In this document: positions 1,982 to 20,000 of the stretch, one piece after another | How positions within the stretch are numbered: the first letter of the stretch is position 1 | Layout: each line of letters begins with the position of its first letter | Source of the DNA: Mayamaea pseudoterrestris | Taxonomy: Eukaryota | DNA length: 20,000 nucleotides | Direction: 5' to 3' | NCBI GenBank assembly: GCA_027923505.1 | Contig: BROI01000037.1 | Span: forward strand, 185,490-205,489 | Program-made: the position numbers and the translations under genes | The notes under the pieces: generated by a model | What the model saw: only the letters and a program-made list of their open reading frames with translations | The model's database searches: none | Told to the model about the DNA's origin: nothing

Positions 1982-3502
1982 ATGGAAGCAAGAACACGAA
2001 CGCCAATCGGGCCTCTCATCGTCAAATCTGCCTCCATGATCGTCGCAGCTGGGTGCGCTTGGTACTTCTACCAACGTAAAGGTTCCATTTGCTACAACCA
2101 GTCGCGCCAAAGGCGCAAACAAAATCATCAAGAAGATTCCATCACGTCGGCTTACGAATCACTGATTGGAGACACGCCCATGATTGAGCTGCAGCACTTG
2201 TCGCGCTTGCTCAAGCGACGAATATTCGTCAAACTGGAACACTTGAATCCAGGAGGGACGGGCAAGGATCGAGCCGCCCGCAGCATGATTTTGGCAGCGG
2301 AACGACAAGGTGCCTTGCCGGTATATGAAGCGAGTCATGAACTGGACGATGTGTCTGGCACGAGGTTTTGCATATCAACAACTGTGACGAGCACGGCAGC
2401 GCGTTGTAATCCATTGCAAGGCGACAATCAACCTGAAACGAGTAATGTAATAAATGCGTCTATCAGTATTAAAGATGCTTCATCAGTTTTCATGGACAAA
2501 ACTATGGACGCTGCAATTCAAAAAGCAGTGGCATATATGCCAACGTCGATTACAAAATGCGGCATGATTGTGGAAGGAACGTCGGGATCCACTGGAATAT
2601 CGTTGGCTGCACTGGCCCGCTGTCGCAACCACGCCTGCATTGTCGTCTTGCCAGACGACCAAGCTTCCGAGAAACGAGTCGTTTTGGAAGCCTTAAGTGC
2701 CGTCGTGTTGGTGGTGCCGACGCACAGCATTTCGCATCCGCACCATTACGTGAATGTGGCACGGAAGCTTGCCGAGCGAGCGCGACTAAAATACAAGCTT
2801 CAGGCGGTGTTCATGGATCAGTTTGACAACTTGGCCAATTTCCAGGTACATTATGATGAGACTGGACCGGAAGTGTGGGAGCAGTGTCAGCGAAATATAC
2901 AAGCTGTTTGTCTTTCCGCAGGAACGGGAGGTACGATTGCCGGCGTTGGCCAATATTTGAAGCAAGCATGTCCATCCATTCGCATTGTTTTGGTGGATCC
3001 GCCGGGGAGCTCGCTGTATCACAAGATTGTGCATGGAGTTTGCTTTGCGCCCCAGCAGTCTGAAAGAACATTGCAGCGACATAGATACGATACCTTGGCG
3101 GAAGGAATTGGACTGGACCGTGTCACGCGCAACCTACAAGCCGGCTTGGATGCGATTGACAGTGCCATTCAGGTATCCGATCAGGAGGCTTTGGACATGG
3201 CGCATTGGTTGCTGCGAAAGGAAGGTTTGTGGGTGGGTTCGAGCTCGGCCATGAATGTTGTAGGAGCCGTCCGCACTGCCATGGAGTTGCCGGAAGCGTC
3301 CAAGATTGTCACATTTGTTTGTGATTCCGGTCAACGGCATGTTACTCGATTCTGGAACCGAGATTTCGTTATAAGCCGAGGATTGGAGTGGCCAGGAGAT
3401 GTTTCATCTCCGTTAGAGTCATCTCTAGAAAGGTTGTCTGACTGCTTACGTGAGGCTTTGGTAAATGACAAGAGAATAAGTACGCTAGAGGACAACCAAT
3501 AA
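1982..3502 (+). CDS. Cysteine synthase-like PLP-dependent enzyme (fold type II), with an N-terminal hydrophobic anchor and an internal insertion
   Basis: Motifs IGDTPMIEL, VKLEHLNPGGTGKDRAA (PLP lysine), EGTSGSTGISLA, DQFDNLAN, AGTGGT, DTLAEGIG, EGLWVGSSSAMN and CDSGQRH. Resembles the fungal cysteine synthase 2/MCY1 type. Confidence 0.9.
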   Translation: MEARTRTPIGPLIVKSASMIVAAGCAWYFYQRKGSICYNQSRQRRKQNHQEDSITSAYESLIGDTPMIELQHLSRLLKRRIFVKLEHLNPGGTGKDRAARSMILAAERQGALPVYEASHELDDVSGTRFCISTTVTSTAARCNPLQGDNQPETSNVINASISIKDASSVFMDKTMDAAIQKAVAYMPTSITKCGMIVEGTSGSTGISLAALARCRNHACIVVLPDDQASEKRVVLEALSAVVLVVPTHSISHPHHYVNVARKLAERARLKYKLQAVFMDQFDNLANFQVHYDETGPEVWEQCQRNIQAVCLSAGTGGTIAGVGQYLKQACPSIRIVLVDPPGSSLYHKIVHGVCFAPQQSERTLQRHRYDTLAEGIGLDRVTRNLQAGLDAIDSAIQVSDQEALDMAHWLLRKEGLWVGSSSAMNVVGAVRTAMELPEASKIVTFVCDSGQRHVTRFWNRDFVISRGLEWPGDVSSPLESSLERLSDCLREALVNDKRISTLEDNQ

Positions 3503-3574
3503 GTTGTCTTAGTGTTTTGTTTACTGGTATAGGGTAAATGGCTGCTACCACCATATGGCGAAGTTGCACGCATC

Positions 3575-3579
3575 AAGCT
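3575..3579 (+). repeat. Left target-site duplication AAGCT (partner at 10451-10455)
   Basis: catc-AAGCT-TGTCA on the left and TGACA-AAGCT-gcctc on the right. Confidence 0.95.
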
Positions 3580-3933
3580 TGTCAGCCGATTACATGATTG
3601 AATACTCGAATGCTCTTGTCGCATGCGACATGAGCTATACATCAATACCTGGCTCGTGTGTGAATCGCCTGTTAATTAAGGACGATCGCCTGTTGGATCT
3701 ATTCAACGGGAGCACATGGACAGTTACATACAAAATTAGCGGACGCTACAGGATTAGCAGACTGTAGCGGGTAACTCACTTTCTATAGTATCACGTTGTT
3801 TTACCGACGTTGTAGATTGTGCCTCTTGCAATACGAGAGCAGTAAAGGAGAAGTGCACATCTCTGGTCTGCTTAAGGATTGTACAGAGGATTGAAGACCA
3901 CTGTCGAGCATCTTGCAAAGAGGCCGTGTGACA
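3580..3933 (+). repeat. 5' LTR of element 1 (354 bp)
   Basis: Direct repeat of 10097-10450 with no difference seen by eye; terminal inverted repeat TGTCA/TGACA. Confidence 0.97.
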
Positions 3934-3949
3934 GATCAACAGTCTTGGT
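3934..3949 (+). promoter_or_regulatory. Putative primer binding site of element 1 (non-canonical, GATCAACAGTCTTGGT)
   Basis: Lies immediately 3' of the 5' LTR. A near-identical GATCACACAGTCTTGGT follows the LTR end of element 2 (14711-14727). Confidence 0.7.
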
Positions 3950-4117
3950 TGTACCCTGCAAAGTGAAGCTTTGGACGCAAGGCATCACCTTCCTTCCCTC
4001 AAAACTTCTTCGCAGTCGACGAGAGCAGCAACTCTCGAGGCAGCATAAAGCAGAAGCACCTTAAAGTAAAGGGGTCTGCGATCGGATCGACTTGCAAGCG
4101 TTCCATAAACTGCAAAG

Positions 4118-6646
4118 ATGGCTCCAAGTACACGGAGCAACTTCCTCAAGATGGGCTTGTCGGCAATGATGAATCTGGCCGACGATGCAACGTATGACGC
4201 TCATAGCATCGTCACGACTCTCCAGTCGATCGGTGTAAATGATCGCGAGTCCCTCATGCTCGTTACCGATGCTGATATCAAGGGTCTCCATTTCTCGCCG
4301 CCAGAGGAGAACATGGTTCTTCGCATCAAGAAGTGGGCGGTCGGCAAGGATAAAGCAGCCGACTGGGCGACTCTGACGATCGACAAGCTTATCAGCGAAA
4401 CAAGCGATAGCGTGGCGACTCCATCGGCGACAAGCACGAGTCGTTCCTTCGAGAGCCGAATCAAAGTTGATATGAACGCGTATAAGGAGCTCAAGGACGA
4501 CAGTCGCTTCCGCGTATGGAATCGAGAGACGCTGATGGCAGCGTATATGCATGGACTCTCCGACATCTTCGACGAGAAGGTTGTCGCTCCGACTGACGCA
4601 GATGGCTTGAAGGAATGGAACTTAAAGCAGAGCGTCGTCATGAGCATCTTCGTTAACACCTTGAAGACGGCGAAATCGCTGCAGATCCTCCGCAAGCACT
4701 TAAACAATCGAACGGCAAAGGCGTGCTATCAGGAGCTAGTCACCGAGTATTGCAAAGGAACGTTCGGAAAGATCCAAGTGCGTAAGGCAGAGAAAACGTT
4801 GCGCGACTTCAAGTTCGATGAATCCAAGTCCCATATGAGCTTCGTTACTGGCTGGCTGAACAAGCTCAAGGATTATGAAGAGATCAAGGATGCGCCCGCG
4901 TCTGATGGAGACAAGCTCGAGTGGTTTACCGACGCGCTGCAAGCAAGCGACGCGCTCCGTGCTGTTATTGATACAACCACCGTGCAAGATCAGCGTGATG
5001 GCAAAGATACCGACTTCAACACCCTGATTACGCTCGTCTCGAGCATGGCGATCTCCAAGGACTCGTATGCTTCGATTACCAAGAGCAAGCTTAAAGCGAA
5101 TCAAGCTGAAACTGGAACTCCAAGCGCTAAGAAGAGCGGCGGCGGCGGTGGTCGTGGCGCCGGGCGTGGAGGAGCTGGTCGAGGCATGCAGAATCCCGGC
5201 CGCGGCACTGGTCGTGGCGGAGGCCGAGGCCAAGGCGGACAGCAGCGTCAAGCGAATGAAGCAGCAAGCAGTACAGCTCAGTTGCCTGCGGTATCGTCTG
5301 AAGTATGGGCGACCATGGACCAAGCAGCTCGAGCGCCGTACATCCGTCAAGCTCGTGAGCGTCGTCAGCAGCGCACTCATCAAGCGGCAAACCAGGCGCA
5401 GTCAAGCGGCGGCAACGGCAATCCGAACATTGCGACCATTCAGTTCGTTAATGAACCAAACCATTCGACGGCAATGTCGGCTGTTACGCAGCAGACTCAG
5501 CCTCCGCAGCAGCAGCAACCCGCGCAGCAGCAGCGAGGATACGCCGCGCGTCAATTCCTTTCGAACGACCAAGCATCGGTTGCTCAATCCAGTCAGCAGT
5601 CGCAGCAACCGGAGCATACCATCATGATGGGGAATCAGCGTTATCACATGTACCGTGCGAACGCTTGTCGGCTCAAGTATCGCATCAGTCGCTCGAGCGT
5701 GGGCGCTGATGACTCGTTGATTGATCGAGGCGCAAACGGCGGCCTCTGGGGATCCGAGGGTCGTGTACTTGACGTATCAACCTTCCACACCGTCGATATT
5801 ACTGGTATTGACAAGCATGTGAAGAAGGGCGTGCCACTTGGAATGGTGGCCGGAAAGATTGTCAGCGTGGAGGGTGAGCAAATCATCGCCATCTTCAACA
5901 ATTACGCCATTGGAGGCAGCGGAGCGACGATTCACGCAGCCATTCAGCTCGAGGACTTTGGACATGAGGTCTTTGATAAGGTATCAGGCGTTGGAGGACT
6001 GCAGTTAATGAAGCTCTCTGATGGAACCATTGTCCCCTTTAGCGTGGTTAATGGATTGGTCCAACTCGCGATGGCTAATTTTACCGACGACGAATTTAAT
6101 AGCCTCCGCTACGTTATGATGACGTTGGATGCTCCCTGGGATCCGTCAAAGTACGACAATGTGCTTGATGAGCAGGTTGCGAAGGACGCTGCAGAGTCGC
6201 TCGACCATGACGCTTCAACCATTGTGATGAGCAACGTCTCTAACCCCGGTCGACCAAACGATTTGCAGTCGTATCTCGAGTCTTTATCCTGCCCTTTGAG
6301 CAACTACGACCGCACGTCGTATACATTGTCCGAAGCGGATCATTCTATCGCTGGAAACGGAGTGGGCGCGACTCATTCAAGTGGACAGCTGCAAGTTGAT
6401 TCTTCTGTCGTCGACAGCAATCAAGTCAATAACACGGAGACTGAACTCGACGCGGACGACGATAGCGTTCCTCCATTGGTCGCGCGCGATGCAAACGATG
6501 ATTCTACCGCTGGCGGGTCCCGCGGCGACGACGAGTCAATCGCTAGCCACGGCAGCAACGACAGCGACGAATGGTTTGACGCTGAGGAAGATCTATTTTT
6601 CGAGTATGGGGAGACAATGAACAAGTCTTCTCTACGCATGATTTAA
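4118..6646 (+). CDS. Gag plus aspartic protease part of the element 1 polyprotein
   Basis: Copia-type Gag core (FRVWNRETL...HGLSDIFD...WNLKQSVVMSIF), an RG-rich/Q-rich segment, protease motif LIDRGANGG (DRG at 5723-5731), then an acidic spacer. Confidence 0.88.
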   Translation: MAPSTRSNFLKMGLSAMMNLADDATYDAHSIVTTLQSIGVNDRESLMLVTDADIKGLHFSPPEENMVLRIKKWAVGKDKAADWATLTIDKLISETSDSVATPSATSTSRSFESRIKVDMNAYKELKDDSRFRVWNRETLMAAYMHGLSDIFDEKVVAPTDADGLKEWNLKQSVVMSIFVNTLKTAKSLQILRKHLNNRTAKACYQELVTEYCKGTFGKIQVRKAEKTLRDFKFDESKSHMSFVTGWLNKLKDYEEIKDAPASDGDKLEWFTDALQASDALRAVIDTTTVQDQRDGKDTDFNTLITLVSSMAISKDSYASITKSKLKANQAETGTPSAKKSGGGGGRGAGRGGAGRGMQNPGRGTGRGGGRGQGGQQRQANEAASSTAQLPAVSSEVWATMDQAARAPYIRQARERRQQRTHQAANQAQSSGGNGNPNIATIQFVNEPNHSTAMSAVTQQTQPPQQQQPAQQQRGYAARQFLSNDQASVAQSSQQSQQPEHTIMMGNQRYHMYRANACRLKYRISRSSVGADDSLIDRGANGGLWGSEGRVLDVSTFHTVDITGIDKHVKKGVPLGMVAGKIVSVEGEQIIAIFNNYAIGGSGATIHAAIQLEDFGHEVFDKVSGVGGLQLMKLSDGTIVPFSVVNGLVQLAMANFTDDEFNSLRYVMMTLDAPWDPSKYDNVLDEQVAKDAAESLDHDASTIVMSNVSNPGRPNDLQSYLESLSCPLSNYDRTSYTLSEADHSIAGNGVGATHSSGQLQVDSSVVDSNQVNNTETELDADDDSVPPLVARDANDDSTAGGSRGDDESIASHGSNDSDEWFDAEEDLFFEYGETMNKSSLRMI

Positions 6647-8425
6647 ACGTTTACCAGGCAACGATGGAAGCTGGCAACACGACGGCATACATCAATCTTG
6701 CCGCTCGTCCTGCTCGATCCATCTTGCCTGCTCGCCCCGACTACGACGCTTTGCGCCCGTACTTCGCGTGGATTCCAATCAATCGTATCAAGGAAACTCT
6801 AAAGAATACAACGCAGTTTTATCGTGCGGAGAACCGTCATCCTATGCGGCGCCATTATCGGACGCGTTTCCCTGGAGCCAACGTTAATCGTCTGGCGGAG
6901 ACGGTCGCTACCGACACCATTTTCTCTGATGTGCCTGCTATTGACGACGGTATTCCCGGTCATGGAGGTTGCACGATGGCACAACTGTACGTTGGTCTTG
7001 AGAGTCGATTGATTGAGGTATACCCCATGCGGAGCAAAGGACAGTTGCCGAGCACGTTGATGAAATTCATAAGCGAACGAGGCGCTCCACTCGAGCTCTT
7101 CTCTGACTGCGCTAAGGAAGCTTGCAGCAAGGAAGTTGAGGAAATCCTTCGTATGATGATGATTCGGCGTCATAAACGCAGCAAGCCATACCAACAGAAC
7201 CAAGATCCCGCGGAGCGCGCCATTGGCGACGTCGAGCGCCAAGTGAATGTCGTCATGGATCGTACTGGGACACCAGCTCCATTCTGGTTGCTTTGTACGC
7301 TGTACATTGCGAGTCTCTTTTGCGTTCTTTCCCAAGCTTCTTTACAAGGGAAGACTGCCTTTCAGCATACTACTGGCCAAGTCCCAGACATTTCGCCCTA
7401 CTTGAATTACCATTGGTGGGAGCGCGTCTCTTTCCTTGACGACAATCCCGACAAGATGACTGATAGCATGCAACGCGCTGGTCGTTTTGTTGGCGTTGCA
7501 AAGGATGTGGGCGACCATTTAACTTATTGGATCCTTGATGAGGAGACGATGAAGGTCATTCCTCGGTCTGTTGTTGCAAAGCGCGACGATCCTGCAAACC
7601 CCAATCTCCGGCTCGATACGCCGACTGTTTCTGCTACTGCAGATGGGGAGGCATTCGTTTACACGCAAGACGGCATCATTGAAGCGTTTAACTTGAGTGA
7701 TAAAGACGAAGAGTCTCCAGTAACAGACAGCGGCGAGCGCTCCCCGGGTGAAACCGTCGCGAGCGACGAGTCGAGAAATCCTTTGAGCAATCCTAATCGT
7801 CCTCAAACTCGCTCACAAACTAAAGCAAATCCTTCTCCAAGCAATCGTCCCAAGTTGCCTTACTTTTCACCTGAAGATTTGATTGATCGGTCCTTTCTAT
7901 ACGACGCTCCAAACGGGCAACGCCTTCGAGCCGTCGTCAAACGCAAGCTAGACACGTTGGACGCTCAGAATCATCAAAACATTAAGTTCATTTTGCATCT
8001 TGGTAAAGAAGAAGCGGAGGAGGTGATTGATTACGTTAAATTGAACGACATCTTCGAGGCTCTTGTGCTGGATGAGGTAGCTAACCCTCAAGCGTGGCCG
8101 ACTTACAAAGAAATCCTTTCCCACGCTGGTCCGTACACAAACCGGTCCCCTGAGTGGCGTGGAAGCAAGTTTAACGTGTTGGTATTATGGGACGATGGCG
8201 AGGACATGAATCAATTTGGCAAAGATGATCCCGTAGCTGCGCCGACTATGCTCGAGACCATGGGCTGCTTGAGACGGATGGATGGAAGTTTCTGCAGAAG
8301 CATGCGCGGGAGACAAGCTCCTTACGCAAGATCAAAGCAGCGAAGTCAGCTCAATCAAAACGCGGTCCACGCTACAAGTTTGACGTCCGTATCCCTCGCG
8401 ACTGGCGTGAAGCTCGTTCCTTTTC
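6586..8425 (+). CDS. Integrase and C-terminal chromodomain-like region of element 1 (frame open from 6586; frameshift at about 8236)
   Basis: DDE core: VATDTIFSD...LFSDCAKE...QNQDPAERAI. SH3-like RAGRFVGVAKDVGDHLTYWI. After 8238 the shifted frame reads CADYARDHGLLETDGWKFL...PRYKFDVRIPRDWREA. Confidence 0.85.
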
Positions 8426-10090
8426 AAGGAAGCTGGCCATACCAAGTGGACTGATGCGGAGCAAGTTGAAATTGACAATCTATTTGAGTACGATACGTTT
8501 AAAGACCTCGGTAAAGGCGACAAGCAACCGAAGGGGCATCAAAAGATCCGCACCATTTGGGTCTACGATTGCAAACATGACTTTCGCCATCGAGCAAGGA
8601 TGGTGGCTGGAGGGCACTTGACGCCCGAGGCAGACGATGCTTACTCGAGCGTCGTATCATTGGAGATTATGCGCTACGCGTTGGTGATTGGAGAGCTGAA
8701 TGGACTCAAGCCCATGGTCGGCGACATCGGCAATGCGTATCTCGAGGCGTACACTAAAGAGAAAGTTTATTTCGTCGCTGGTCCTGAGTTCGGCCATCTT
8801 GAAGGGCATTCCCTGCTCATTGTCAAAGCTCTATACGGTCTGCGAACTAGCGGAGCTCGTTTCCATGAGCGTCTAGCCGATGCTCTGCGTGACGAAGGAT
8901 TCAAACCTTCGCTGGCGGATCCCGACCTGTGGTTGCGAGACACTGGCGATTGCTACGAGTATATATGCGTCTGGGTTGACGACTTGCTTGCCATTCTGAA
9001 GGATCCAGAGGCGTTTTACGAGGCGCTGCGCAGCAAGTATCAGTTCAAATTGAAAGGCGTCGGGCAACCCGAGTATCATCTTGGAGGCAACTTCGGTCGC
9101 GATCCTGATGGTACGCTCTATTGGGGAGCTCGCACGTACGTTGAAAAGCTTCTCGGCAATTACGAGCGCATGTTTGGCGGTCCTCCAAAGAAGTATTCTT
9201 CGCCGCTCGACAAGGACGACCATCCTGAGTTGGATCAGTCGCCATTACTGCGCGCTGATGGAGTCAAGATGTATCAATCGCTCGTCGGAGCGCTGCAGTG
9301 GGCAATTACTTTGGCACGATTCGATATCGCATGCGGAGTTGCTTGCTTATCTCGCTTTCGAGCGGAGCCTCGTGAGGGGCATCTTGATCGAGTCAAGCGC
9401 GTTTGTGGCTACTTGCGTAATCATCCTGACGCTGCGATTCGCTTCCGAGTTAACTGGCCTGAAAACGAGGCAATCTTTGGAGAGCAACCCGAGTTTGATT
9501 GGATGTATAGCGTCTACGGGGAGCCCGCGGAGGATGAGCTTGCTTTATATCCTCCACCAAAGGGAAGAATGGTGCGTCTGACGACATGGAAAGACGCCAA
9601 TTTAATGCACTGCAAAGTAACTGGCAAATCTTGCAGCGGCATTCTTCATTTCATTAACCAAACGCCCGTCAAGTGGTTCTCCAAGTTACAAGATACAGTG
9701 GAGGCGGCAACGTTTGGATCTGAGTCAATGAGTGGACGCATTGCTACCGACCATATCATCGGGATGCGCGCGTCGCTCAAGGCGATGGGTGTGCCTATAG
9801 AGAAGACCAGCTGGATGCTTGGAGACAACCAGTCGGTAATCACTCAAAGCACAATCCCTAGCTCAACACTTACAAAGCGTCACAATGCTCTGGCCTACCA
9901 TCGGATTCGCTGGGCGGTGGCGACTAAGGTAATCAAGTTCGTCAAGGTCGACGGTAAGGAAAACGTCGCAGACCCTCTGACCAAGTACATGAATTACACT
10001 GAGTCAATGCCTTTGATCAAGCCTCTGTTATTCTGGAGAGGAGAGACTTTGATTGAAGGAGATTTGGGAGCTGGCAGCCGATCTGCTTAA
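8426..10090 (+). CDS. Reverse transcriptase plus RNase H of element 1
   Basis: KWTDAEQVEIDNL...WVYDCKHDFRHRARMVAGGH, GDIGNAYL, KALYGLRTSG, WVDDLL; RNase H KDANL...TFGSE...LGDNQ...NVADPLTK. The frame is open upstream of the ORF-track ATG at 8600. Confidence 0.93.
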   Translation, partial: KEAGHTKWTDAEQVEIDNLFEYDTFKDLGKGDKQPKGHQKIRTIWVYDCKHDFRHRARMVAGGHLTPEADDAYSSVVSLEIMRYALVIGELNGLKPMVGDIGNAYLEAYTKEKVYFVAGPEFGHLEGHSLLIVKALYGLRTSGARFHERLADALRDEGFKPSLADPDLWLRDTGDCYEYICVWVDDLLAILKDPEAFYEALRSKYQFKLKGVGQPEYHLGGNFGRDPDGTLYWGARTYVEKLLGNYERMFGGPPKKYSSPLDKDDHPELDQSPLLRADGVKMYQSLVGALQWAITLARFDIACGVACLSRFRAEPREGHLDRVKRVCGYLRNHPDAAIRFRVNWPENEAIFGEQPEFDWMYSVYGEPAEDELALYPPPKGRMVRLTTWKDANLMHCKVTGKSCSGILHFINQTPVKWFSKLQDTVEAATFGSESMSGRIATDHIIGMRASLKAMGVPIEKTSWMLGDNQSVITQSTIPSSTLTKRHNALAYHRIRWAVATKVIKFVKVDGKENVADPLTKYMNYTESMPLIKPLLFWRGETLIEGDLGAGSRSA

Positions 10091-10096
10091 GCGGAG
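10089..10096 (+). promoter_or_regulatory. Putative short polypurine tract AAGCGGAG
   Basis: Purine-rich 8-mer abutting the 3' LTR and overlapping the pol stop codon. Confidence 0.55.
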
Positions 10097-10450
10097 TGTC
10101 AGCCGATTACATGATTGAATACTCGAATGCTCTTGTCGCATGCGACATGAGCTATACATCAATACCTGGCTCGTGTGTGAATCGCCTGTTAATTAAGGAC
10201 GATCGCCTGTTGGATCTATTCAACGGGAGCACATGGACAGTTACATACAAAATTAGCGGACGCTACAGGATTAGCAGACTGTAGCGGGTAACTCACTTTC
10301 TATAGTATCACGTTGTTTTACCGACGTTGTAGATTGTGCCTCTTGCAATACGAGAGCAGTAAAGGAGAAGTGCACATCTCTGGTCTGCTTAAGGATTGTA
10401 CAGAGGATTGAAGACCACTGTCGAGCATCTTGCAAAGAGGCCGTGTGACA
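10097..10450 (+). repeat. 3' LTR of element 1 (354 bp)
   Basis: Direct repeat of 3580-3933, preceded by a short purine-rich tract and followed by TSD AAGCT. Confidence 0.97.
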
Positions 10451-13124
10451 AAGCTGCCTCCAACGCGCTCATAACGGCAGCCTTCTTCTCGTCCTCCGAA
10501 GCATACTCTCGTGACAGCAAGTCCTTCAAATTGATCTGACGCAAACGCTTTACAAATGCAGTGTCAGCCGCGACAGACTCGGCTTGATCATGATCGTCGA
10601 CGGCGTAGCCGCTATTGACAACGCTGCTGGGACTGCTTTCCGACGACTGCCGTTTCTTTGTGTATTGAAAATTCTCCAACTCTTTCGCCTTAATTTTAGC
10701 GTCTTCAATCACCACAGAAGGTACGTTGGCCATTTTAGCAACTTGAATGCCAAAGCTTTCAAGGCACGGACCTGGTTTGACTTCGTAAAGAAAGGTCAAG
10801 CCATGATCACCCTTCTTCGCAGTAACATGATAGTTCTTGACAACATGCTTACAATCTTCGAGTGCCGTCAGCTCGTGAAAGTGTGTCGTAAACACCGTCA
10901 TGCAGCCAATCGTGTCGACTATGTATTCACTAATCGCTCGCGCCAAACCATATCCGTCGAAAGTTGACGTTCCTCGTCCAAGCTCATCAATCATGATCAA
11001 ACTTCGCTTGGTCGCGCGACGTAAAATAGATGACGACTCAAGCATTTCAGCCATAAAGGTGCTGATTCCGCGTTCCTGCAAGTCACCCGCACCAACGCGG
11101 GCCAAAATGTCGTGGCAAATGTTCATTTTGGCAGATGCGCACGGCACATACGCGCCAACTTGTGCGAGCGCAACAATGGCACCGAGCGAGCGAATATAGA
11201 CGGATTTTCCGCCCATATTTGGTCCTGTAATGAGCAGAAAGGACTGCTCACCGTATACAAGGCGAATGTCGTTGGGGATAAAGTCGACGCCGTCCTGGAG
11301 CTCGACGCACGGGTGGCGGGCCGCTTTCAAAACAATGCCAGTTCCGTCGTCCTCATTGTCCGTCAATTCCGGTCGAACGTAGTTACTGTATGCTGCAATA
11401 TGGGAAAAGCCAACAATAACATCCAAAGTCGCGACCAGTTGACTGGCATGAGACAGCACGTCGACATAGCTGGCCGCCGCCTGCATGGCTTGCATGGCTA
11501 GTTGGCGCTGGTACTTGTCATACTCATTTTTCAAATCTTGCTTGCGACTTGCTAGTCCACGAAGTTCCTTGGTTGTAAAGTAGACTCCATTCTTCAAGAT
11601 TCGCGAAACCTGGACGCGAATCTGCGTCGTTGCCTCGAGCAGCTTCAAGTCATTGGCATCGGCGAGTCGAAACTGAAACTCACCATCATTCGAGTTTCGG
11701 TCCAACTTGACGGCGTTTCGCTTTCCCGAAATGTTTGCCCAGGTTTCGTTCATTTGCTCCAAGCATTCCTGCACCTGCGTTTCCAATTCATTCAGCTCGT
11801 CATACACTTGCTCCAGCTCCGGCTTGTAGCCGGGTCGAAGTCGATATTCGCGGGGAGCAGCGTCCAAGTCAACAACATCTTCGGCTAGCTGACTCGCAAG
11901 AACCAAATCTTGTTCACACTGCTCAAGGCCATGCAGCAGCGTTACGAGCAGACTGGGCGGCACAGCAGTTTCATCGTTGTGAGAATGATGTAACGTCGAC
12001 GGATCGTCCGATAATGCCACTTGCAAGCGATCCCGGAGCAATGGAACTCGTTGTGATGCCACTAGCCAAAGTTTGTACATGGCCTGCAGCGCCTTGGTCG
12101 TTGGCCCCAACGGCATGCTCGCGCCAATGTCATTGACGCTTCCATCATGCACTGACGACGCCGCATCACTATCAATCTCATCATCAATACTAGTATACAT
12201 TTCCAGCTGCTTGGCCAAGCCATCCAGATCAATGGCAGCAAATCCCGCCAAACCTTCCTGTTTGAGTGCATCGCGCGCAATGTTTCGCTGCAGCAACCAC
12301 GCCACCGCCTCCTGTCGCTCCAGTATTTGCTCCAACTGCACCAGCGGCTGCTGCAACCACGTGGCCAGTCGCAGCTTGCCCACGTGCGTCTGCAGTGGCT
12401 GTCTCAACAATCCAAAGAGACTCGCGTTGCTCGCGCTGCTGAAAGCTCCCACTTGATCGGCAATGTGCGACGGCGGCCATAAATGAATGGCTTCGCACGC
12501 CGTCTTGTCGAGTGACAGAAACGACGGCAGTTTGCCCACGTCAATCTCCAGCGCCAGTGACGACTGCTCCGTTTGCGTCGCGCTGAAATAGAATTCGAGA
12601 CTAGTCGAAAGGTGCGTCGTTTCCGACGAGTGCAGCAAGGATGACAAATCGGAGTGCGCGCCAACGGAGAGGGCGGCTTGGCGCGACAAGCGATGCGCCA
12701 AGGTTTGCGACAAGTTGCATTTGCTTTTGGGTAGTGTTTCGTGGAAGCGAATCGTCACGTCGAGAGCAGGTGGTCCGTCGATGGCTTGCATGCTGTCATT
12801 GTTTTCGTCATTGTCTTGCGATTGCGTAACGAGTATTTGCTGCAACACTTGCTCGAGCGCTCCCAACGCTCGCTGCTTGACTTGCTTCTCGGCTGCAACG
12901 TGAATGCATGAAACGTCAAAATCTGCTTGCTGCAACAGTGCCTGAAGATGAGTGTAGGCCGCTGGATGATCAATGAAGGAGTAGCATCGCAAGGACTGCG
13001 TGGACGAATTCACTGCGGAATCACATTCGCGCCAAAGCGTCAGCTGGACGGCATGGGCGCAGTTTGGATCGGTCATTCCCGATAAGGACTTGTAGCGGGA
13101 GACGTAGAGTGTAACTGCTGTCAT
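10389..13124 (-). CDS. MSH2: DNA mismatch repair protein MSH2, with a 20-aa LTR-derived C-terminal extension
   Basis: TGPNMGGKS Walker A, RVGAGDLQERGISTFMAEMLE, IDELGRGTSTFDGYGLARAISEYI, THFHELT, SFGIQVA and KNGVYFTT all match the MSH2 subfamily. The likely start is the ATG at 13124 (alternative 13202). The stop TAA lies inside the LTR. Confidence 0.93.
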   Translation of the reverse strand: MTAVTLYVSRYKSLSGMTDPNCAHAVQLTLWRECDSAVNSSTQSLRCYSFIDHPAAYTHLQALLQQADFDVSCIHVAAEKQVKQRALGALEQVLQQILVTQSQDNDENNDSMQAIDGPPALDVTIRFHETLPKSKCNLSQTLAHRLSRQAALSVGAHSDLSSLLHSSETTHLSTSLEFYFSATQTEQSSLALEIDVGKLPSFLSLDKTACEAIHLWPPSHIADQVGAFSSASNASLFGLLRQPLQTHVGKLRLATWLQQPLVQLEQILERQEAVAWLLQRNIARDALKQEGLAGFAAIDLDGLAKQLEMYTSIDDEIDSDAASSVHDGSVNDIGASMPLGPTTKALQAMYKLWLVASQRVPLLRDRLQVALSDDPSTLHHSHNDETAVPPSLLVTLLHGLEQCEQDLVLASQLAEDVVDLDAAPREYRLRPGYKPELEQVYDELNELETQVQECLEQMNETWANISGKRNAVKLDRNSNDGEFQFRLADANDLKLLEATTQIRVQVSRILKNGVYFTTKELRGLASRKQDLKNEYDKYQRQLAMQAMQAAASYVDVLSHASQLVATLDVIVGFSHIAAYSNYVRPELTDNEDDGTGIVLKAARHPCVELQDGVDFIPNDIRLVYGEQSFLLITGPNMGGKSVYIRSLGAIVALAQVGAYVPCASAKMNICHDILARVGAGDLQERGISTFMAEMLESSSILRRATKRSLIMIDELGRGTSTFDGYGLARAISEYIVDTIGCMTVFTTHFHELTALEDCKHVVKNYHVTAKKGDHGLTFLYEVKPGPCLESFGIQVAKMANVPSVVIEDAKIKAKELENFQYTKKRQSSESSPSSVVNSGYAVDDHDQAESVAADTAFVKRLRQINLKDLLSREYASEDEKKAAVMSALEAALSHGLFARCSTVVFNPLYNP

Positions 13125-13592
13125 GATGATGAAGTTGGTACAGACAAAATGGAGGTGCAAGGATGCTAACTGTGGCTCGCAGTTTTTGCATTCTTGCATC
13201 ATTGCATTGGATGAGGCGAATGAACGGAAACCGCTACGACAGCTTCAGCTATCGCGACATTATTACCCTCCTCCTATCCACTACTATCATTCACCGCATC
13301 GCTCCCAGCCACCCGACTGGCATGAGTCTCTTTGTACGTTGAACTGTTTGTCTCGAGTGTCTGCTGTAGTACTGTACAGTACCTTGGGGCGGGCTTTTGA
13401 ACCATCAGAATATTCGCTTGCTTTTACATCAATCATTCTACGATAGACTTTTCAAACCTTTTGCCGTTGCATTCCAACGTGAATCACGTCTTTTCAAGTC
13501 CGACCCCGGCCTCTCGGTGCTTTGCTGTGCGCTTGTTTTTGTTTTGCCTAACTGTAACTTTCATCAAAATAAAATCATCAAGGTACTTCACC

Positions 13593-14448: not shown

Positions 14449-14710
14449 TGCCAGCCGCAGGCACGATTAAACAAGATTAGTATTCACTATCGTGAATGGT
14501 CTTGAAAGAGCCATCTGATCAATCGCTCTTTCTCGACCGATCGTAAATCAACTCACTTTCTAGAGAACTGCTTAATCAACTAGTGTTTTGTAGGATAAGA
14601 CCCCTGTAGGATAAACCAAGGTAAAGGACTGATCATCCCGCTCACTTGGAAACCGACTACAGAGGGTGAGGAATCGTTGCAGCCGTACGAACTGGAACTG
14701 CATCGTGTCA
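14449..14710 (+). repeat. Putative 5' LTR of element 2 (3' end well supported; start 14449 preferred, 14318 alternative)
   Basis: Ends CGTGTCA directly before the PBS-like motif. AACTCACTTTCTA ends 148 bp before the LTR end, as in element 1. The start TGCCAGCCGCAGGCACGATTAAA matches the element 1 LTR start at 16/23 positions, ungapped. Confidence 0.6.
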
Positions 14711-14951
14711 GATCACACAGTCTTGGTCTTTACAATCAACCTCGGCGCTGGTGACGTCACTCCCGTCGTTTCGTTGCACACTACATTGGCAGCGGACATC
14801 CCTCGTTCATTTCCTGTCGAGGCTTCAATCTACACTAGTCCGGTAGACGGAGGGATTGAAGACCGAAGTCGATTGCAAGCATCGCTTCGGATAGAATCGA
14901 CTTCCTCGATTATTCGCGATATATCTCATCCTGTACCAATCAATCAACAAC

Positions 14952-17900
14952 ATGACCGTCGTCGAAGATGATCCTCCCGACGGACCCAATGTCACGCAAG
15001 ATGACGCGGAAGACAACTCGCTCGCCGTCGGATTGAAAAGCATGTACAAGCAGAAGACCGTCAACAACGACAAGTTCATGAAGCTTCCAGTCATCGTCGC
15101 CATCAAGTCACTCCTCCCGGACGGACGTCTACTCACGGAGCCATTCCTAATGCTGACCATCAAGGACATCGAGTCGGTACTGAAGGAATCCAAAACGCAC
15201 ATCACGGTTATTCGAACCATCACCCCTCGTCAATGGGCACGGAAGAGCGCGAACTCAAGGAATGGGCGACGCTCGTCGCAGGACTCATCAAAGCGACCGA
15301 ATCGCCCGAAGAGTCTCTATTCCAAAGCGACATGAGTCGGATTCAACCGAGTCAGCCACGGACGTTCCCGGAAGTCCGAGGCCGAGAAGTACAAATCTCG
15401 CGTCCGAGTAGACACCAAAGCATACAACGAGTTCAAAGACGAGTACAAATTCTGTCAATGGTGGCTCAAAATGTTCACAACGGCCAGAACCAAGGCATCG
15501 AGCGAGTCTTCGATCCGGATTTCAACCGACAACGCCGCTCGAAGATCTCGAGGTATTCAAAGCGCAAGAAGCCACAGCATTCGACATCATCACTTCATAC
15601 TGCAAAGTCGCCAACTGCATCCCGATCATTCGCTGCCACAAGGACGGGTCGGCCCACAGTGATTATAGGAAATGCACACGATGTAATTGGACGGGCAAGA
15701 ACGCCGAACGCGCAGCGCAGCGAGTCAAGAGTTCCGCGACATGAAACTGACGAACGACCACGGCAGTACGTACACTCGTGGTTCACTCAATGGGAGAATG
15801 CCTTGCTCGATACGAAGATTATACTGGCGAAACAGTCCCCGACGCGACGCGCAAGAAGTGGTTGTCCGAATCGGTTCGCTGGAATGACGCCCTTTCGCCA
15901 AGAAATTCGGCGAGTCGTATCCTCAACGCGCAAGGTCAAGATCAAAGCTTCGAAGACTGGTACAAGCAGCTCATCGAGTTCGGCTCGCGATACCGACGAC
16001 GTCAAAGCGACACGCCAAACGCCAAATGAAGATCCACCAATCCATCCAACAAGCGAGTACTACTGACCGGAGGCACTACACCGACTAGCGGCAACACTCA
16101 AAGCAGCAGCCACGGCGGAAACGGTCGTGGAAATGGCAGCGGACGTGGAACGGTCGCGGTTCTGGACGCGGTGAAAGCGCGGCCGAGGTAACCGGACGAG
16201 GTGGTGGACACGGACAGTGCACCAATCCTTCTGCAGCATCGAACCGTCGAGTCGAGCCGGATGTATGGTTCTCTTGGACGGAGGAGCAACGCGAAGCTCA
16301 TAAGGCAGAAACTCCCGAATCCGGGAAGCGGAACGTGCGCGCCTGCAGCTGAACGCCAAGCCCAAGCCAGCACGAACAACACTAATACACCACCAACTCC
16401 ACAAATTCAGCTTCCACCGGCGAGTACGACGGCGATGTCAGCCATGTCGGCGATTACTCAGCCTACAGTCGAACTACACCAGCACGTGGAACCGCCATGC
16501 GCGCGTTTCAGTCTCAGCAACAAGGCTCGATCGCTCAAGGAAGCCAGCCATCTACTCCACCAGTGTATCAAGCACGAGTTGGCGACGTTACATACAACAT
16601 GTATCGATGCCAACGCAACTAACGTCACGCGTCGTTCTACAAACCTATGCGCTACACATAACGTTATCCTACGCAGATGCGCTTTATGGGTATGAATACT
16701 CCGGCAACCGAAGGGCCACACACGTCACAGTTCCATGTCACTGGTCCATTACGTCCCGAAGCCCGTCCATGATGGATCGCGGTGCCAACGGTTCGTCGCT
16801 GGAGGAGATGATTTGCTTGGATCGTCGACGACCAGTTTGCAGACGTTACCGGAATTGACAATCACATGGCAAGGACTACCCCGGAACATTCGCCGCCAAG
16901 ATCTGGACGACGGAAGGGTACGTCATTGGCATTTTCTACCAGTACGCCGACGGAGGAACCGACGCAACCATTCCTCGGTCGTTCAGCTCGAGGACTTCGG
17001 AAACAAGGTATTCGAGCAAGGCAAGCGCACTTGGCGGACGGCAGCTCATGTACACCCGAAGGAGCATTGATCCCATTCACGGTCCAGAACGGTTTGGTCC
17101 ATTTGAAGATGCATCATTTCACCGACGCCCGAGTTCGACACGTTGCCGCACGTCGTCATGACAGCAGACACGCCTTGGGATCCGTCAATCGATGGAGACC
17201 TTAATGACAGTCGATCCAAGCGGAAATTGAAACCACGCGACGGACGATCACGGCGCCAACACTACTAGTCAACAACACCAAGTCAACGGAAACGCGCAAG
17301 ACGAATATCCCGAAGACCTTTCAGTCAAAACACTCAACGTCGTCTCATGGAACGGATTCCGAAACCCACGAATGGGAGCACTTCAGCGACGAGTCGGACC
17401 CTATACAAGTCGAAACCGGGTCCATCCGAGCGCGTTGAGCCGACATTGTACCCGACGACGCTTCTTACAACACGAACCCACAACAGGACGACATTTCACT
17501 ACCCTCACTACTTTCACGCGGAACCATATCGACATCCGGATCAAGCCATGCTCCGAATCCCAACGACGCAACGTTCGAATCTGAAGACATTGCCGGGAAA
17601 TGCGATCCGTACGAGCTGCAGGTCAATGCCGCAATTGTAGAAGCTGGAGGCAATCCATATTCTGGACTAGCCGGCCGACCAGCGCACGCTGTGGTTCCTA
17701 CGCGACCAGATTACCAAATGCTCCGTCCCAACTTGATTTCTACCCACCGATCCGTATCAAAGAGACTCTCAAGAACACTACCCAATTCTATCACGCCGAG
17801 CAACGTTTTCCTCAGCGACGCCATTTGCGTACTTCGTTTCCCGGTGCGAATGTTTCCGACTACCTGAAGAAGTTGCAATGGACACACTATTCTCCGACAC

Positions 17901-20000
17901 ACCCGCACTCAACGATGGTATTCCTGGACATGCCGGATGCCAAGCAGCGCAACTATACGTTTGCATGCAGAGCCGATTGATTCGCGTCTGCCGATGGCGA
18001 ACAAGGGACAAGTTCCGTCGACGCTCATGCAGTTTATCAACGATTGCGGTGCTCCACCGGTCTAATATCAGACGGAGCCAAGGAAGAAAACAGCCTGGCG
18101 AGCGAATCGAACGCCAGTTTATGATCCGTAAGCACTGGGTCAGCGAACCGGAAAACCAACAGCAGAATCCAGCGGAACGCGTTATCGGCGACGTCGGCGC
18201 GCACTGTCAATGTCAACATGGATCGAACCGGATCGCCTGCACCAACCTGGCTGCTATGCACTCTACATCGTAGCTCTGCTCGCCCTCATGTCCCGGTCAC
18301 GTCTTCTGGTGGCATGACCCCATATCAAAAGGTATATAATGAAGTACCCAATATCTCTGCCTACCTCAACTACCACTGGTGGCAGCCCGTTCGATACAGC
18401 GCAAACTCTACATCGCTCAACCAAACCAATGAGCGCGCTGGACGCTCGTCGGGTAGCTGATAACGTCGGTGATGCTCTAACGCTACTGGGTCTTGGACGA
18501 GGAAACACATCAAGTTGTCGCCCAAAGCATTGTAACGCTCGTCGAGACGATCTTAATCCAAACATCCGTCTTGATTTACCAAGTCGAAGCTTCTCCCGAA
18601 GCGCGTGTTAGTATACCCGAAGGTGGAACTCAAGAGAGCTTCCAACTCGGCACCCAAAGCTCCGAAGAAGAGGGGCTACCCACTGATGAACCCGTTCCTA
18701 CTGAAACGGCGACGACGGACCCAGTTCGCCCGGAGATGAACCATTCGTCGGAGCAGTCCCACCAGCGGCCGCCATCAGCCCGTCCTCAAGCGCATCCACG
18801 CGGACCAATCGATTACTACCTGCATTCTCACCTGAAGAACTTTACAATAAGCGTTTACTCGGCATACTCAGGATGGGTGGCTCCATGGAGCGGCGAATGG
18901 TTCACAAGCTCGAAACCATGGACGCAGCCAACCATCATAACATCAAGTTCCTACTCCAATCGGCGAAAACGAAGCTGAAGAAGTCATCGATTACATCCGA
19001 CTCTGCGAATTGTTCGAAAAGGACCAAGCAGCAAAGGTAAGCGATCCTGAACACAACTGGACGTTTAAAGCAATCCTATGATCTAAGGGCCACTCGCCAG
19101 CAATCCAACGGATGGAAAGGCTCCATGTATAACATCAAAGTCGTGTGGGAAGAGCACCAACTCGCGACTTGGGAGCCTTTGAACGCTGCTTAGCGACGAC
19201 ATCATTTCCTGCGCACTACGCCCGGCGAACGGTGGGTCACTACTCAACAAGAAAGGCTGGAAGTTCCTACTTGACGCAGCCCGACGCGCACGTAGTCGCC
19301 CGTCGAACCGTAAAGCCAACGACGCAGCACCCGTGCACGTTCGGCGTCAGGTACCACGATCCAAAGGGCTTCGAAAGTTCCAAGAAGAACTCCGGCATAC
19401 CAAATGGACCGACGCGGAGAAGGTAGAGCTGTCAAGCCTGTTCGATCACGACACCTTCATTGATCTCGGATTGAATGCCGCGCCTCCCGAAGGCTATCAA
19501 AAGATTCGCACTATCTGGGTCTGCGACTGCAAGCAAGACTTTCGTTCACAAGGCTCGGATGGTTGCGGTGGACACCTTACTGATCCTGTCGACGACTCAT
19601 ACTCGAAGCGTCGTTTCACTGGAATCGCTGCGCCTAGCGCTGGCGATAGGGAGTTGAATGGACTCACTCCCATGGTAGCGACATCGAAATGCTTACCTCG
19701 AAGCAAAACCAAGAAAAGATTTACTTCATCGCTGGACCTGAGTTCGGCGACTTGGAAAACCACACACTCATCATCTACAAAGCACTCTACGGCTCCGCAG
19801 AACAAGGCACGATTCCCGACCGCTCTGAAAACGGAAGGCTTCAAAGCCTGTCGCCCGATCACGTTTGGATTCGTGCTGGCCATTCTTGAATACTTTCACT
19901 GTCACCGACGCCTGCTAATGATTGCCCGGGCGCATTCTACGACATTCTTCGCAACAAGTACAAGTTCAAGCTCAAACGTCGGATGCCCAGAGTACCATCT
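14952..20000 (+). pseudogene. Fragmented gag-pol of element 2
   Basis: Homology to element 1 switches frame repeatedly and no long ORF remains. This could be decay or uncorrected long-read error. Confidence 0.7.

What the first reader, a model, noticed from the sequence alone, without database searches (positions are those of the whole stretch)
3934..3955. Non-canonical PBS shared by both elements resembles half-tRNA priming by a non-Met tRNA
Seen: neither LTR is followed by TGG. Element 1 has GATCAACAGTCTTGGT and element 2 has GATCACACAGTCTTGGT, although their leaders otherwise differ. The reverse complement CAAGA-CT-GTT-GA-TC has the layout of a tRNA anticodon arm ending four bases after the anticodon. 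Established: Drosophila copia and yeast Ty5 prime from tRNA-iMet cut in the anticodon stem, in this same register. Inference: these elements may use a 5' half of another tRNA, either Asn(GTT) or a Tyr/Phe/Cys-type GACTGNNGATC arm with a mismatch.
Basis: partly seen in the sequence, partly recalled or inferred. Interest (0 to 1): 0.7.

Follow-up and report, generated by a model that had tools for sequence, protein, structure and literature searches.

The report
Retrotransposon primer site matching tRNA-Asn anticodon arm
Two copia-type jumping genes in this window start their internal region with a short sequence that pairs with the middle (anticodon arm) of the asparagine tRNA rather than with a tRNA's end, a known but uncommon way to start reverse transcription, here with a tRNA not yet reported for it.

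Summary
Element 1 (3580-10450) has identical 354-bp LTRs and an AAGCT target duplication. Element 2's 5' LTR ends at 14710. Both are Ty1/copia-type retrotransposons.

The first 14-15 bases after each 5' LTR (GATCAACAGTCTTG and GATCACACAGTCTTG) are the only conserved part of LTR ends and leaders that otherwise do not align.

In 16 related junctions from other assemblies the same place reads GATTAAC, then (N)AGTC or ACGTC, then three variable bases. This is the complement of tRNA-Asn(GUU) positions 27-40: the 5' strand of the anticodon stem, the loop, and two bases of the 3' strand. All three tested versions of the variable bases occur as anticodon stems in real tRNA-Asn genes.

Sequencing runs that hold the window contain a eukaryote-type tRNA gene. 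It is 57/58 identical, over positions 7-64, to a tRNA-Asn with this arm.

There is no conserved complement to a tRNA 3' end and no self-priming complement. Priming itself is inferred, not shown.

Both window elements carry C where all 16 relatives carry T, opposite tRNA position 37. This is unexplained.

Half-tRNA priming by non-Met tRNAs (Ile, Tyr, Asp, Arg, Lys) is already described for Copia elements. I found no report for Asn.

The parts
3575..3579 (+). Target-site duplication AAGCT, left copy (element 1)
   Evidence: Same 5 bases at 10451-10455.
3580..3933 (+). Element 1, 5' LTR (354 bp, TGTCA..TGACA)
   Evidence: 100% identical to 10097-10450.
3934..3947 (+). Element 1 primer binding site GATCAACAGTCTTG. 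It is complementary to tRNA-Asn(GUU) positions 40 down to 27, except C3937 opposite position 37. The two further bases shared with element 2 (3948-3949) are not conserved in relatives.
   Evidence: for the sequence and its conservation. for the tRNA-Asn arm. for the tRNA in runs that hold the window.
4118..10087 (+). Element 1 gag-pol region. It lies in pieces (frame 2: 4109-6643; frame 1: 6586-8451; frame 2: 8411-10087, with a short homologous stretch in the third frame at 8235-8432). Order is integrase-like, then reverse transcriptase.
   Evidence: RVT_2 E=3.9e-14. rve only E=0.058.
10089..10096 (+). Putative polypurine tract AAGCGGAG just before the 3' LTR (inferred from position and composition only)
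10097..10450 (+). Element 1, 3' LTR
10451..10455 (+). Target-site duplication AAGCT, right copy
14650..14710 (+). 3' end of element 2's 5' LTR (ends ..GTGTCA). The LTR start was not determined and the 3' LTR lies beyond the window.
   Evidence: The boundary is inferred from the shared CA|GATC junction.
14711..14725 (+). Element 2 primer binding site GATCACACAGTCTTG: the element 1 motif plus one extra base in the part that pairs with the anticodon loop.
14728..20000 (+). Element 2 internal region, decayed. The longest open stretch is 353 aa and the frame changes many times. It runs off the window.
   Evidence: RT similarity to element 1.

Best explanation
The 14-15 bases after each 5' LTR are the minus-strand primer binding site of two Ty1/copia-type retrotransposons. 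They pair not with a tRNA 3' end but with positions 27-40 of cytoplasmic tRNA-Asn(GUU): the 5' strand of the anticodon stem, the whole anticodon loop, and the first two bases of the 3' strand.

Inferred mechanism, by analogy with copia, Ty5 and other Copia-superfamily elements:
- The tRNA is cut in the 3' strand of its anticodon stem, after about position 40 or 41.
- The new 3' end lies against the last base of U5.
- Reverse transcriptase extends it into minus-strand strong-stop DNA.

Shown: the position of the motif, its conservation, its complementarity to tRNA-Asn, the match of its stem part to tRNA-Asn stem variants, and the presence of such a tRNA in runs that hold the window.

Inferred: that tRNA-Asn is the primer, that it is truncated, and where it is cut.

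Both elements here have C opposite A37, where relatives have T. Most likely this is a tolerated mismatch inherited from their common ancestor. The idea that position 37 of Asn tRNAs carries a bulky modification that pairs poorly is recalled knowledge, not tested here.
For: 1. Position. The motif abuts the LTR end in element 1, whose LTRs and target duplication are exact.

2. Conservation. The motif is the only conserved block in LTR ends and leaders that otherwise do not align. CAGTCTTGGT occurs 2 times in the window against 0.03 expected.

3. Relatives. 31 loci encode an RT 47-60% identical to element 1 (one distant locus at 27%).
- 12 of them carry GATTAAC directly after a ..CA or ..TA end, in the expected place: 30-70 bases before the long ORF, or after the LTR-sized gap behind pol.
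- 4 more such junctions came from the same assemblies by pattern search. That search gave 8 hits, all junctions, against 0 hits for the reversed control pattern.
- All 16 keep the complement of anticodon GUU plus A37, A38, U39, C40.

4. tRNA match. Of these, 53 were typed tRNA-Asn(gtt) with NN=TA, plus 4 untyped with NN=TA.

5. Stem variants. The PBS versions ..GTCGCA and ..GTCTCA predict the stems TGCGA/TCGCA and TGAGA/TCTCA. Both exist in tRNA-Asn genes: 86 tRNA-Asn in 85 loci, and 7 in 7 loci.

6. Host tRNA. In runs X1 and X2, which hold 0.78 and 0.67 of the window's sampled words, a 418-base contig matches a tRNA-Asn(GTT) over positions 7-64 with 1 difference in 58. Its loose ends form a 7/7 complementary acceptor stem, followed by discriminator G and a T run.

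7. Precedent. Truncated-tRNA priming is described for Copia-superfamily elements (passages read).
Against: - Neither window element is a perfect complement. Element 1 has C opposite A37 (13 of 14). Element 2 has that C plus one extra base.
- The place of the single difference in the host tRNA contig was not reported. The arm could differ by one base from the reference.
- None of the 57 GTT hits has G at position 37, so the C is not explained by any tRNA-Asn seen.
- The hosts of the 16 relatives are unknown. They lie in bins labelled bacterial that evidently contain eukaryote contigs.
- One locus with the expected region (L241) shows a different sequence after its LTR-like end. Four others (L255, L264, L267, L271) show no such motif, or may lack the junction.
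- Element 1 is not coding-intact, so this copy may not prime anything itself.
- No primer, cut tRNA or cDNA was observed.
Confidence: 0.75

Rival explanations
1. In this host the primer is another tRNA with a GUN anticodon and a similar arm, such as tRNA-His(GUG) or tRNA-Tyr(GUA). The window's GATCA(A/CA)CAG form would then be a switch away from the ancestral Asn site, or a hybrid able to bind two tRNAs.
For: - Element 1 is one substitution away from the exact complement of a His arm CAAGA-CTGTGGA-TCTTG. Element 2 is one inserted base away from it.
- tRNA-His genes with that very stem exist: 46 typed of 120 hits.
- C opposite position 37 fits the G37 of those His genes (25 with GG) and of Tyr-type arms.
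- Runs X1, X2 and X6 hold a second tRNA gene that is 36/41 identical to the Asn reference over positions 8-48 and has discriminator A. Its identity is open.
- Tyr genes usually carry an intron after position 37 (passage), so the scan would miss them.
Against: - All 16 relatives are Asn-type.
- Element 1 keeps AAC, the exact complement of GUU.
- Against His or Tyr the mismatch falls on anticodon position 36, in the middle of the duplex.
- A tRNA 57/58 identical to an Asn reference is present in the runs.
- Nothing shows that the host's His or Tyr has the CAAGA/TCTTG stem.
Confidence: 0.1
2. The conserved block next to the LTR has another job, such as integrase recognition of the LTR end, packaging or dimerisation. 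Priming would then occur by another route, for example self-priming as in Tf1 or a hairpin site as proposed for fungal GalEa.
For: - In three relatives the 3' part of the block lies in a hairpin with the sequence just downstream.
- Fungal GalEa elements are reported to have a conserved hairpin in place of a PBS (passages).
Against: - The best complement of the block within the LTR is 7 bases in element 1, and there is none of 7 or more in element 2. Tf1-type priming needs a longer exact match at the transcript start (passage).
- The block is an exact complement of a tRNA arm, and its stem part follows tRNA-Asn stem variants. A pure protein-binding or dimerisation site would not be expected to do this.
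Confidence: 0.07
3. Ordinary priming from a tRNA 3' end through the TGG at 3946 (element 2: 14724), with a 12-base spacer after the LTR.
For: TGG is present 12-13 bases after both LTRs.
Against: - The bases after TGG differ between the two elements (TTGTACCC against TCTTTACA).
- TGG is absent in 10 of the 16 relatives.
- Conservation lies 5' of the TGG, not 3' of it.
Confidence: 0.01

Closest known systems
Drosophila copia and yeast Ty5 (primer: 3'-truncated initiator tRNA-Met, anticodon stem-loop)
   Same: Copia superfamily. The PBS abuts the LTR and pairs with the anticodon stem-loop rather than the CCA end (passages). That the register is the same, with the primer ending in the 3' strand of the anticodon stem, is recalled. 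Ke et al. 1999 was not held.
   Different: The tRNA here is elongator Asn(GUU), not initiator Met. There is no experimental proof here.
Plant Bianca lineage (1/2 tRNA-Ile) and Osser/Bryco/Gymco-II (1/2 tRNA-Met), Neumann et al. 2019, PMC6317226
   Same: An in-silico assignment of a half-molecule tRNA primer that is characteristic of a Copia lineage. It includes a non-Met tRNA and a modified anticodon-loop base that affects pairing (passages).
   Different: Different tRNA and host kingdom. That survey lists tRNA-Asn only among PBS types that it describes as mostly complementary to tRNA 3' ends (2% of elements).
Puccinia Copia families and Helenus TRIMs (anticodon loop of tRNA-Tyr, Ile, Asp, iMet), Kojima 2024, PMC10886601
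   Same: [quoted passage not shown]
   Different: Asn is not among them. The hosts are fungi.
[quoted passage not shown]
   Same: An internal-region PBS for a non-Met tRNA (passages). By my own comparison, the FunCo1 PBS shares 9 of 11 letters with 3935-3945 in the same register.
   Different: Other tRNAs. Fungal hosts.
Diatom CoDi Copia lineages (Maumus et al. 2009, PMC2806351)
   Same: Ty1/copia elements of diatoms. The window's host gene has its best named relatives in diatoms.
   Different: Membership was not tested, since no CoDi sequence was at hand. The main text of that paper does not discuss primer sites (0 occurrences of 'tRNA'; its one 'PBS' is a buffer). Its supplements were not looked at.
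Tf1 self-priming and the fungal GalEa conserved hairpin site
   Same: Non-canonical starts of reverse transcription next to the 5' LTR.
   Different: There is no complement of the block at the transcript's 5' side. The block here is a tRNA complement.

Membership tests
Ty1/copia (Pseudoviridae-type) LTR retrotransposon | Two LTRs with TG..CA ends and a 5-bp target duplication | tested here: met
   Element 1: 354-bp identical LTRs, TGTCA..TGACA, AAGCT duplication. Element 2: only the 5' LTR end is in the window.
Ty1/copia (Pseudoviridae-type) LTR retrotransposon | Copia-type reverse transcriptase (RVT_2) | tested here: met
   PF07727, E=3.9e-14, 53.3 bits against a cut-off of 31.6. All 120 listed homologues carry PF07727.
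Ty1/copia (Pseudoviridae-type) LTR retrotransposon | Integrase upstream of reverse transcriptase | tested here: inconclusive
   There is only a weak rve match (E=0.058, below cut-off) in the piece before the RT. The order is consistent but not proven. Gag and protease were not recognised.
Copia elements primed by a 3'-truncated (half) tRNA | PBS directly after the 5' LTR, complementary to a tRNA's anticodon stem-loop and ending in the 3' strand of the anticodon stem | tested here: met
   Element 1 matches 13 of 14 bases against tRNA-Asn positions 27-40. The 11 relatives without an extra base match all 11 of positions 30-40, and the three further bases match known Asn stems in 10 of those 11.
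Copia elements primed by a 3'-truncated (half) tRNA | No usable complement to a tRNA 3' CCA end at the LTR border | tested here: met
   No TGG at the border. The downstream TGG is not conserved, nor is what follows it.
Copia elements primed by a 3'-truncated (half) tRNA | The matching tRNA exists in the host | tested here: met
   Runs X1 and X2, which hold the window, contain a tRNA gene 57/58 identical to a tRNA-Asn(GTT) over positions 7-64. Caveat: the place of the one difference is unknown, and no whole genome is held.
Copia elements primed by a 3'-truncated (half) tRNA | The primer is a cut tRNA found on minus-strand strong-stop DNA | not testable with these tools
   This needs cDNA or primer sequencing. 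No RNA run was listed.
Tf1-type self-priming elements | The first bases of the transcript (in the LTR) are complementary to the PBS over about 11 bases | tested here: not met
   The longest complement in the LTR is 7 bases in element 1. There is none of 7 or more within 600 bases upstream in element 2.
Diatom CoDi lineages | RT/RNase H groups with CoDi reference elements in a tree | not tested

The most novel reading that the evidence does not exclude
The C opposite tRNA position 37, shared by both elements of this host while all 16 relatives from other hosts have T, may not be a tolerated mismatch. It may record a host-specific state of tRNA-Asn position 37. That state could be a G37 gene variant used as primer, or a modification that reverse transcriptase reads as G when plus-strand strong-stop DNA copies the primer. 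The PBS would then act as a fossil read-out of a tRNA's anticodon-loop state. The single unlocated difference in the host tRNA contig leaves this open.
Probability: 0.1. Interest if true: 0.6.

Novelty: new member of a known kind. Interest (0 to 1): 0.4.

Why it matters
It adds tRNA-Asn(GUU) to the elongator tRNAs whose anticodon arm can serve Copia-type elements as a primer site. It also places this priming mode in a large, poorly described clade: more than 1,700 RT relatives in metagenomes, from a host whose one searched gene is closest to diatom proteins.

Practical points:
- LTR annotation tools that look only for tRNA 3'-end complements will report "no PBS" for this clade.
- The motif CA|GATTAAC(N)AGTC is a ready marker for the clade's 5' ends.
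- The part of the site that pairs with the stem follows tRNA-Asn stem variants, which may help to link elements found in metagenomes to hosts.

The C/T difference opposite position 37, and the one-base bulges tolerated in the loop part, give natural variants for testing what the primer duplex requires.

Tried and rejected
- No whole genome is held for the window, and ARAGORN finds no tRNA in the window.
- Earlier notes of this scan gave nothing by place, words or sequence.
- Viral contigs hold no relative of the RT.
- The loose PBS pattern gave 120 or more hits in viral contigs. These look like chance: only one hit touches a tRNA (Glu), and only at that gene's edge.
- The gag-side ORF (4118-6646) found no homologue, so relatives could not be fetched from the PBS side.
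- MAFFT on the two junction regions put the motifs out of register. I anchored the alignment on the junction instead.
- Self-priming was rejected. 3'-end priming through TGG was rejected.
- GTT with G37 was not found: 0 of the 57 NN=TA/TG-class hits had TG.
- No RNA holder was listed among the sequencing runs.
- Run X7 had nothing laid on the tRNA.
- The read laying tables of differences were empty although the pieces differ by 1 and 5 letters. The places of those differences could therefore not be read.
- One supplementary file of PMC4247016 is held as text and has no Asn entry. Its table of tRNA fragments could not be seen and may bear on whether 5' Asn fragments exist in diatoms.
- Ke et al. 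1999 (Ty5) is not held.
- The search for GATNNACAGTCTT in five assemblies gave 7 GATTAAC junctions plus 3 other hits. The reversed control gave 6 hits, so the 3 others count as chance.
- (a 7-base pattern over all loci) was too unspecific to use.
- Literature searches for a half tRNA-Asn primer found nothing relevant. These cover only the held library.

Full report
WHAT IS THERE

The window holds two LTR retrotransposons on the + strand.

Element 1:
- It runs from 3580 to 10450.
- Its LTRs (3580-3933 and 10097-10450) are 354 bp and 100% identical. They begin TGTCA and end TGACA, and are flanked by the 5-bp duplication AAGCT.
- Its last coding piece carries a copia-type reverse transcriptase (PF07727, E=3.9e-14).
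- The piece before that has only a weak integrase-core match (E=0.058).

Element 2:
- Its 5' LTR ends ..GTGTCA at 14710, and the element runs off the window.
- It is related to element 1: an 82-base RT stretch is 72% identical, and the in-frame start of the RT is similar.
- It is decayed, with many frame changes.

The neighbouring host genes are a PLP-dependent, cysteine-synthase-like gene and an MSH5-like gene. The best named relatives of the first are diatom proteins at 48-56% identity. The host is therefore probably a diatom or another stramenopile, but this is tentative. No whole genome is held.

Directly after the two 5' LTRs come GATCAACAGTCTTGGT (3934-3949) and GATCACACAGTCTTGGT (14711-14727). 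Neither border has TGG.

The 10-mer CAGTCTTGGT occurs exactly twice in the window, at these two places. Shuffles give 0.03 expected, and 0 of 200 shuffles reach 2 matches. A third, one-mismatch match at 14263 is within chance.

The sequences around the motif are so unlike that MAFFT misplaced the motifs.

RELATIVES

The RT has more than 1,700 relatives among metagenome proteins (1,766 with E<=0.001 among the 8,000 candidates scored). The gag-side ORF found none.

An RT alignment pulled 31 loci from genome contigs. All lie in bins labelled as bacteria that evidently contain eukaryote contigs. Where complete, these relatives have one uninterrupted gag-pol frame of about 1,930-2,000 codons.

In 12 of the 31 loci, GATTAAC follows directly on a ..CA (once ..TA) end in the expected place. 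That place is 30-70 bases before the long frame, or behind pol after an LTR-sized gap. The loci are L246, L247, L251, L254, L256, L259, L260, L261, L263, L266, L268 and L270.

Most of the other 19 loci are too short to include the junction. L241 has room but shows another sequence (GATCCCACTG..) after an ..ACA end. L255, L264, L267 and L271 show no such motif, or may lack the junction.

A pattern search of five of those assemblies gave 8 hits. All were junctions of this kind, and 4 of them were new (L276-L279). The reversed control pattern gave 0 hits.

Two contigs end in an exact overlap of assembler-word length, as expected when one LTR joins the two ends of the internal region.

Anchored on the junction, conservation is confined to cA|GATtAACAGTCTtg.

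WHAT THE MOTIF MATCHES

Read as its reverse complement, the relatives' motif is ..GACTGTTAATC. Numbering follows the ARAGORN-called tRNA-Asn in L122. On that numbering the motif covers G30, A31, the loop C32 U33 G34 U35 U36 A37 A38, and U39 C40.

The three bases beyond this pair with positions 27-29 and vary among the relatives: TTG, TCA, GCA and GTA.

ARAGORN typing of those rows gave:
- 53 tRNA-Asn(gtt) with NN=TA, plus 4 untyped with NN=TA;
- 46 tRNA-His, plus 3 untyped;
- 11 tRNA-Asp, plus 1 untyped;
- 1 tRNA-Tyr, plus 1 untyped;
- none with GTT followed by G.

The stems predicted by the other PBS versions also exist in tRNA-Asn genes. TGCGA/TCGCA gave 86 tRNA-Asn in 85 loci. TGAGA/TCTCA gave 7 in 7 loci. 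The GTA version was not tested.

So the invariant part of the site is the complement of the Asn anticodon and its neighbours. The variable part changes in the way tRNA-Asn stems change. This is what a primer site that tracks its tRNA should look like. A site conserved for protein binding would not be expected to behave this way.

IS THE tRNA IN THE HOST?

Seven coded runs hold part of window 1982-4400. X1 holds 0.78 and X2 holds 0.67 of the sampled words.

I laid X1, X2, X6 and X7 on a 96-base stretch around a metagenome tRNA-Asn(GTT) that has this arm and a T-run trailer (L122).

In X1 and X2, a 418-base contig matches tRNA positions 7-64 with one difference in 58. The loose ends on its two sides are complementary to each other at 7 of 7 positions, which gives an acceptor stem. 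They are followed by discriminator G and a run of T, so this is a real eukaryote-type tRNA gene.

The tool did not report where the single difference lies. The arm is therefore identical to the reference or differs from it by one base. Either way at least 12 of the 14 PBS positions pair.

A second, shorter contig (in X1, X2 and X6) is another tRNA: 36/41 identical over positions 8-48, with a different acceptor stem and discriminator A. Its identity is open. X7 gave nothing.

WHAT IT MOST LIKELY DOES

The block is the minus-strand primer binding site, and the primer is tRNA-Asn(GUU) used from an internal 3' end.

In element 1, bases 3934-3947 pair with positions 40 down to 27, except C3937 opposite A37. 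The LTR's last A could pair with U41.

Truncated-tRNA priming is reported for copia and Ty5, with the tRNA cut in the anticodon stem or loop region (passages only).

That the same happens here is an inference. So is my suggestion that the site ends at position 27 because a modified base at position 26 would stop the copying of the primer; that suggestion rests on recalled knowledge.

ALTERNATIVES

- Self-priming is not supported. The longest complement of the block in the LTR is 7 bases in element 1, and there is none of 7 or more in element 2.
- Priming from a tRNA 3' end through the downstream TGG is not supported. What follows TGG differs between the two elements, and TGG is missing in 10 of the 16 relatives.
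- A different GUN tRNA in this host (His or Tyr) cannot be excluded. Element 1 is one substitution, and element 2 one inserted base, from an exact His-arm complement. His genes with this stem exist.

WHAT REMAINS ODD

Both window elements have C where all 16 relatives have T, opposite position 37.

The two are closer to each other than to the relatives. One change in a common ancestor, tolerated because position 37 of Asn tRNAs pairs poorly (recalled), is the simplest reading.

The strict T in the relatives argues that the position is not free. A host-specific state of position 37 therefore remains possible.

One-base extras in the loop part occur in element 2 and in 4 relatives (L246, L261, L268, L270). 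The duplex evidently tolerates a bulge there.

COMPARISON WITH WHAT IS KNOWN

Half-tRNA priming is a known trait of the Copia superfamily, and it is not limited to initiator tRNA-Met:
- plant Bianca elements are assigned 1/2 tRNA-Ile;
[quoted passage not shown] - fungal FunCo1 is assigned an internal region of tRNA-Lys.

I saw only the matching passages of these papers, not their full texts or supplements.

Searches for a half tRNA-Asn primer, and for primer sites of diatom retrotransposons, found nothing relevant in the held library. The main text of the diatom CoDi paper does not mention tRNA.

This is therefore a new member of a known kind: the same mechanism class with a tRNA not yet listed, in a clade where the primer site had not been described.

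VERDICT

The mechanism is inferred. Interest is moderate.

Noticed in passing
window 4109-10087: Element 1 has identical LTRs, so it looks like a recent insertion. Yet its gag-pol is split over frames: frame 2 up to about 6211-6643, frame 1 from 6667 to 8271, a third frame from 8235 to 8432, then frame 2 from 8420. Relatives have a single frame of about 1,930-2,000 codons. Either this is a defective copy moved in trans, or the assembly has indel errors.
   Followed up: partly
window 10389-13202 (- strand) and 3575-3579 / 10451-10455: Element 1 sits in the last codons of the MSH5-like gene. With the element and one AAGCT copy removed, the frame is 917 codons and stops about 2 codons past the insertion point. 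With the element present it reads on into the LTR, to 937 codons.
   Followed up: partly
L251:135-160, L256:155-177, L254:1270-1296 (relatives): In three relatives the 3' part of the PBS (UCUUGG.. or UCUCAG..) forms a 9-11 bp hairpin with the sequence just downstream. Compensatory changes keep the pairing (CTTGG/CCAAG against CTCAG/CTGAG). The downstream arm has the same letters as the tRNA's own 5' stem strand. The window's elements do not show this hairpin. It might gate or assist primer annealing.
   Followed up: partly
L246:4227, L261:5492, L268:1152, L270:987; window 14716: Four relatives and element 2 carry one extra base inside the part of the PBS that pairs with the anticodon loop.
   Followed up: no
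L279 (complement of 674-745): This short contig has a junction of the same kind (..CA|GATTAACAGTCTTG). About 230 bases downstream it has a tRNA-like sequence with an abnormal anticodon loop, which ARAGORN calls Asn(gtt). It may be a non-autonomous element carrying a tRNA-derived piece.
   Followed up: no
L241:168-185: This relative has the same gag-pol layout but a different sequence after an ..ACA end (GATCCCACTGATACC). It may use another primer.
   Followed up: no
L241-L271 (genome contigs): Bins labelled as bacteria (one of them supplies 13 of the 31 loci) hold many contigs encoding eukaryote copia-type polyproteins. This most likely means repeat-rich eukaryote DNA was binned into prokaryote MAGs.
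   Followed up: no
window 14260-14272: CTACAGTCTTTGT lies 55 bases before the likely start of element 2's LTR. It resembles the PBS with a Tyr-type (GTA) complement. It is within chance by the shuffle test.
   Followed up: no
runs X1, X2, X6 laid on L122:136-176: The host runs hold a second tRNA gene that is 36/41 identical to the Asn reference over positions 8-48. It has its own 7/7 acceptor stem and discriminator A. Its anticodon was not readable from the output.
   Followed up: no
window 3886-3920, 4087-4107, 14851-14886: Short shared strings (GATTGAAGACC.., TCGA(C)TTGCAAGC) recur in element 1's LTR end, in its leader just before the first ATG, and in element 2's leader. Their function is unknown.
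   Followed up: no
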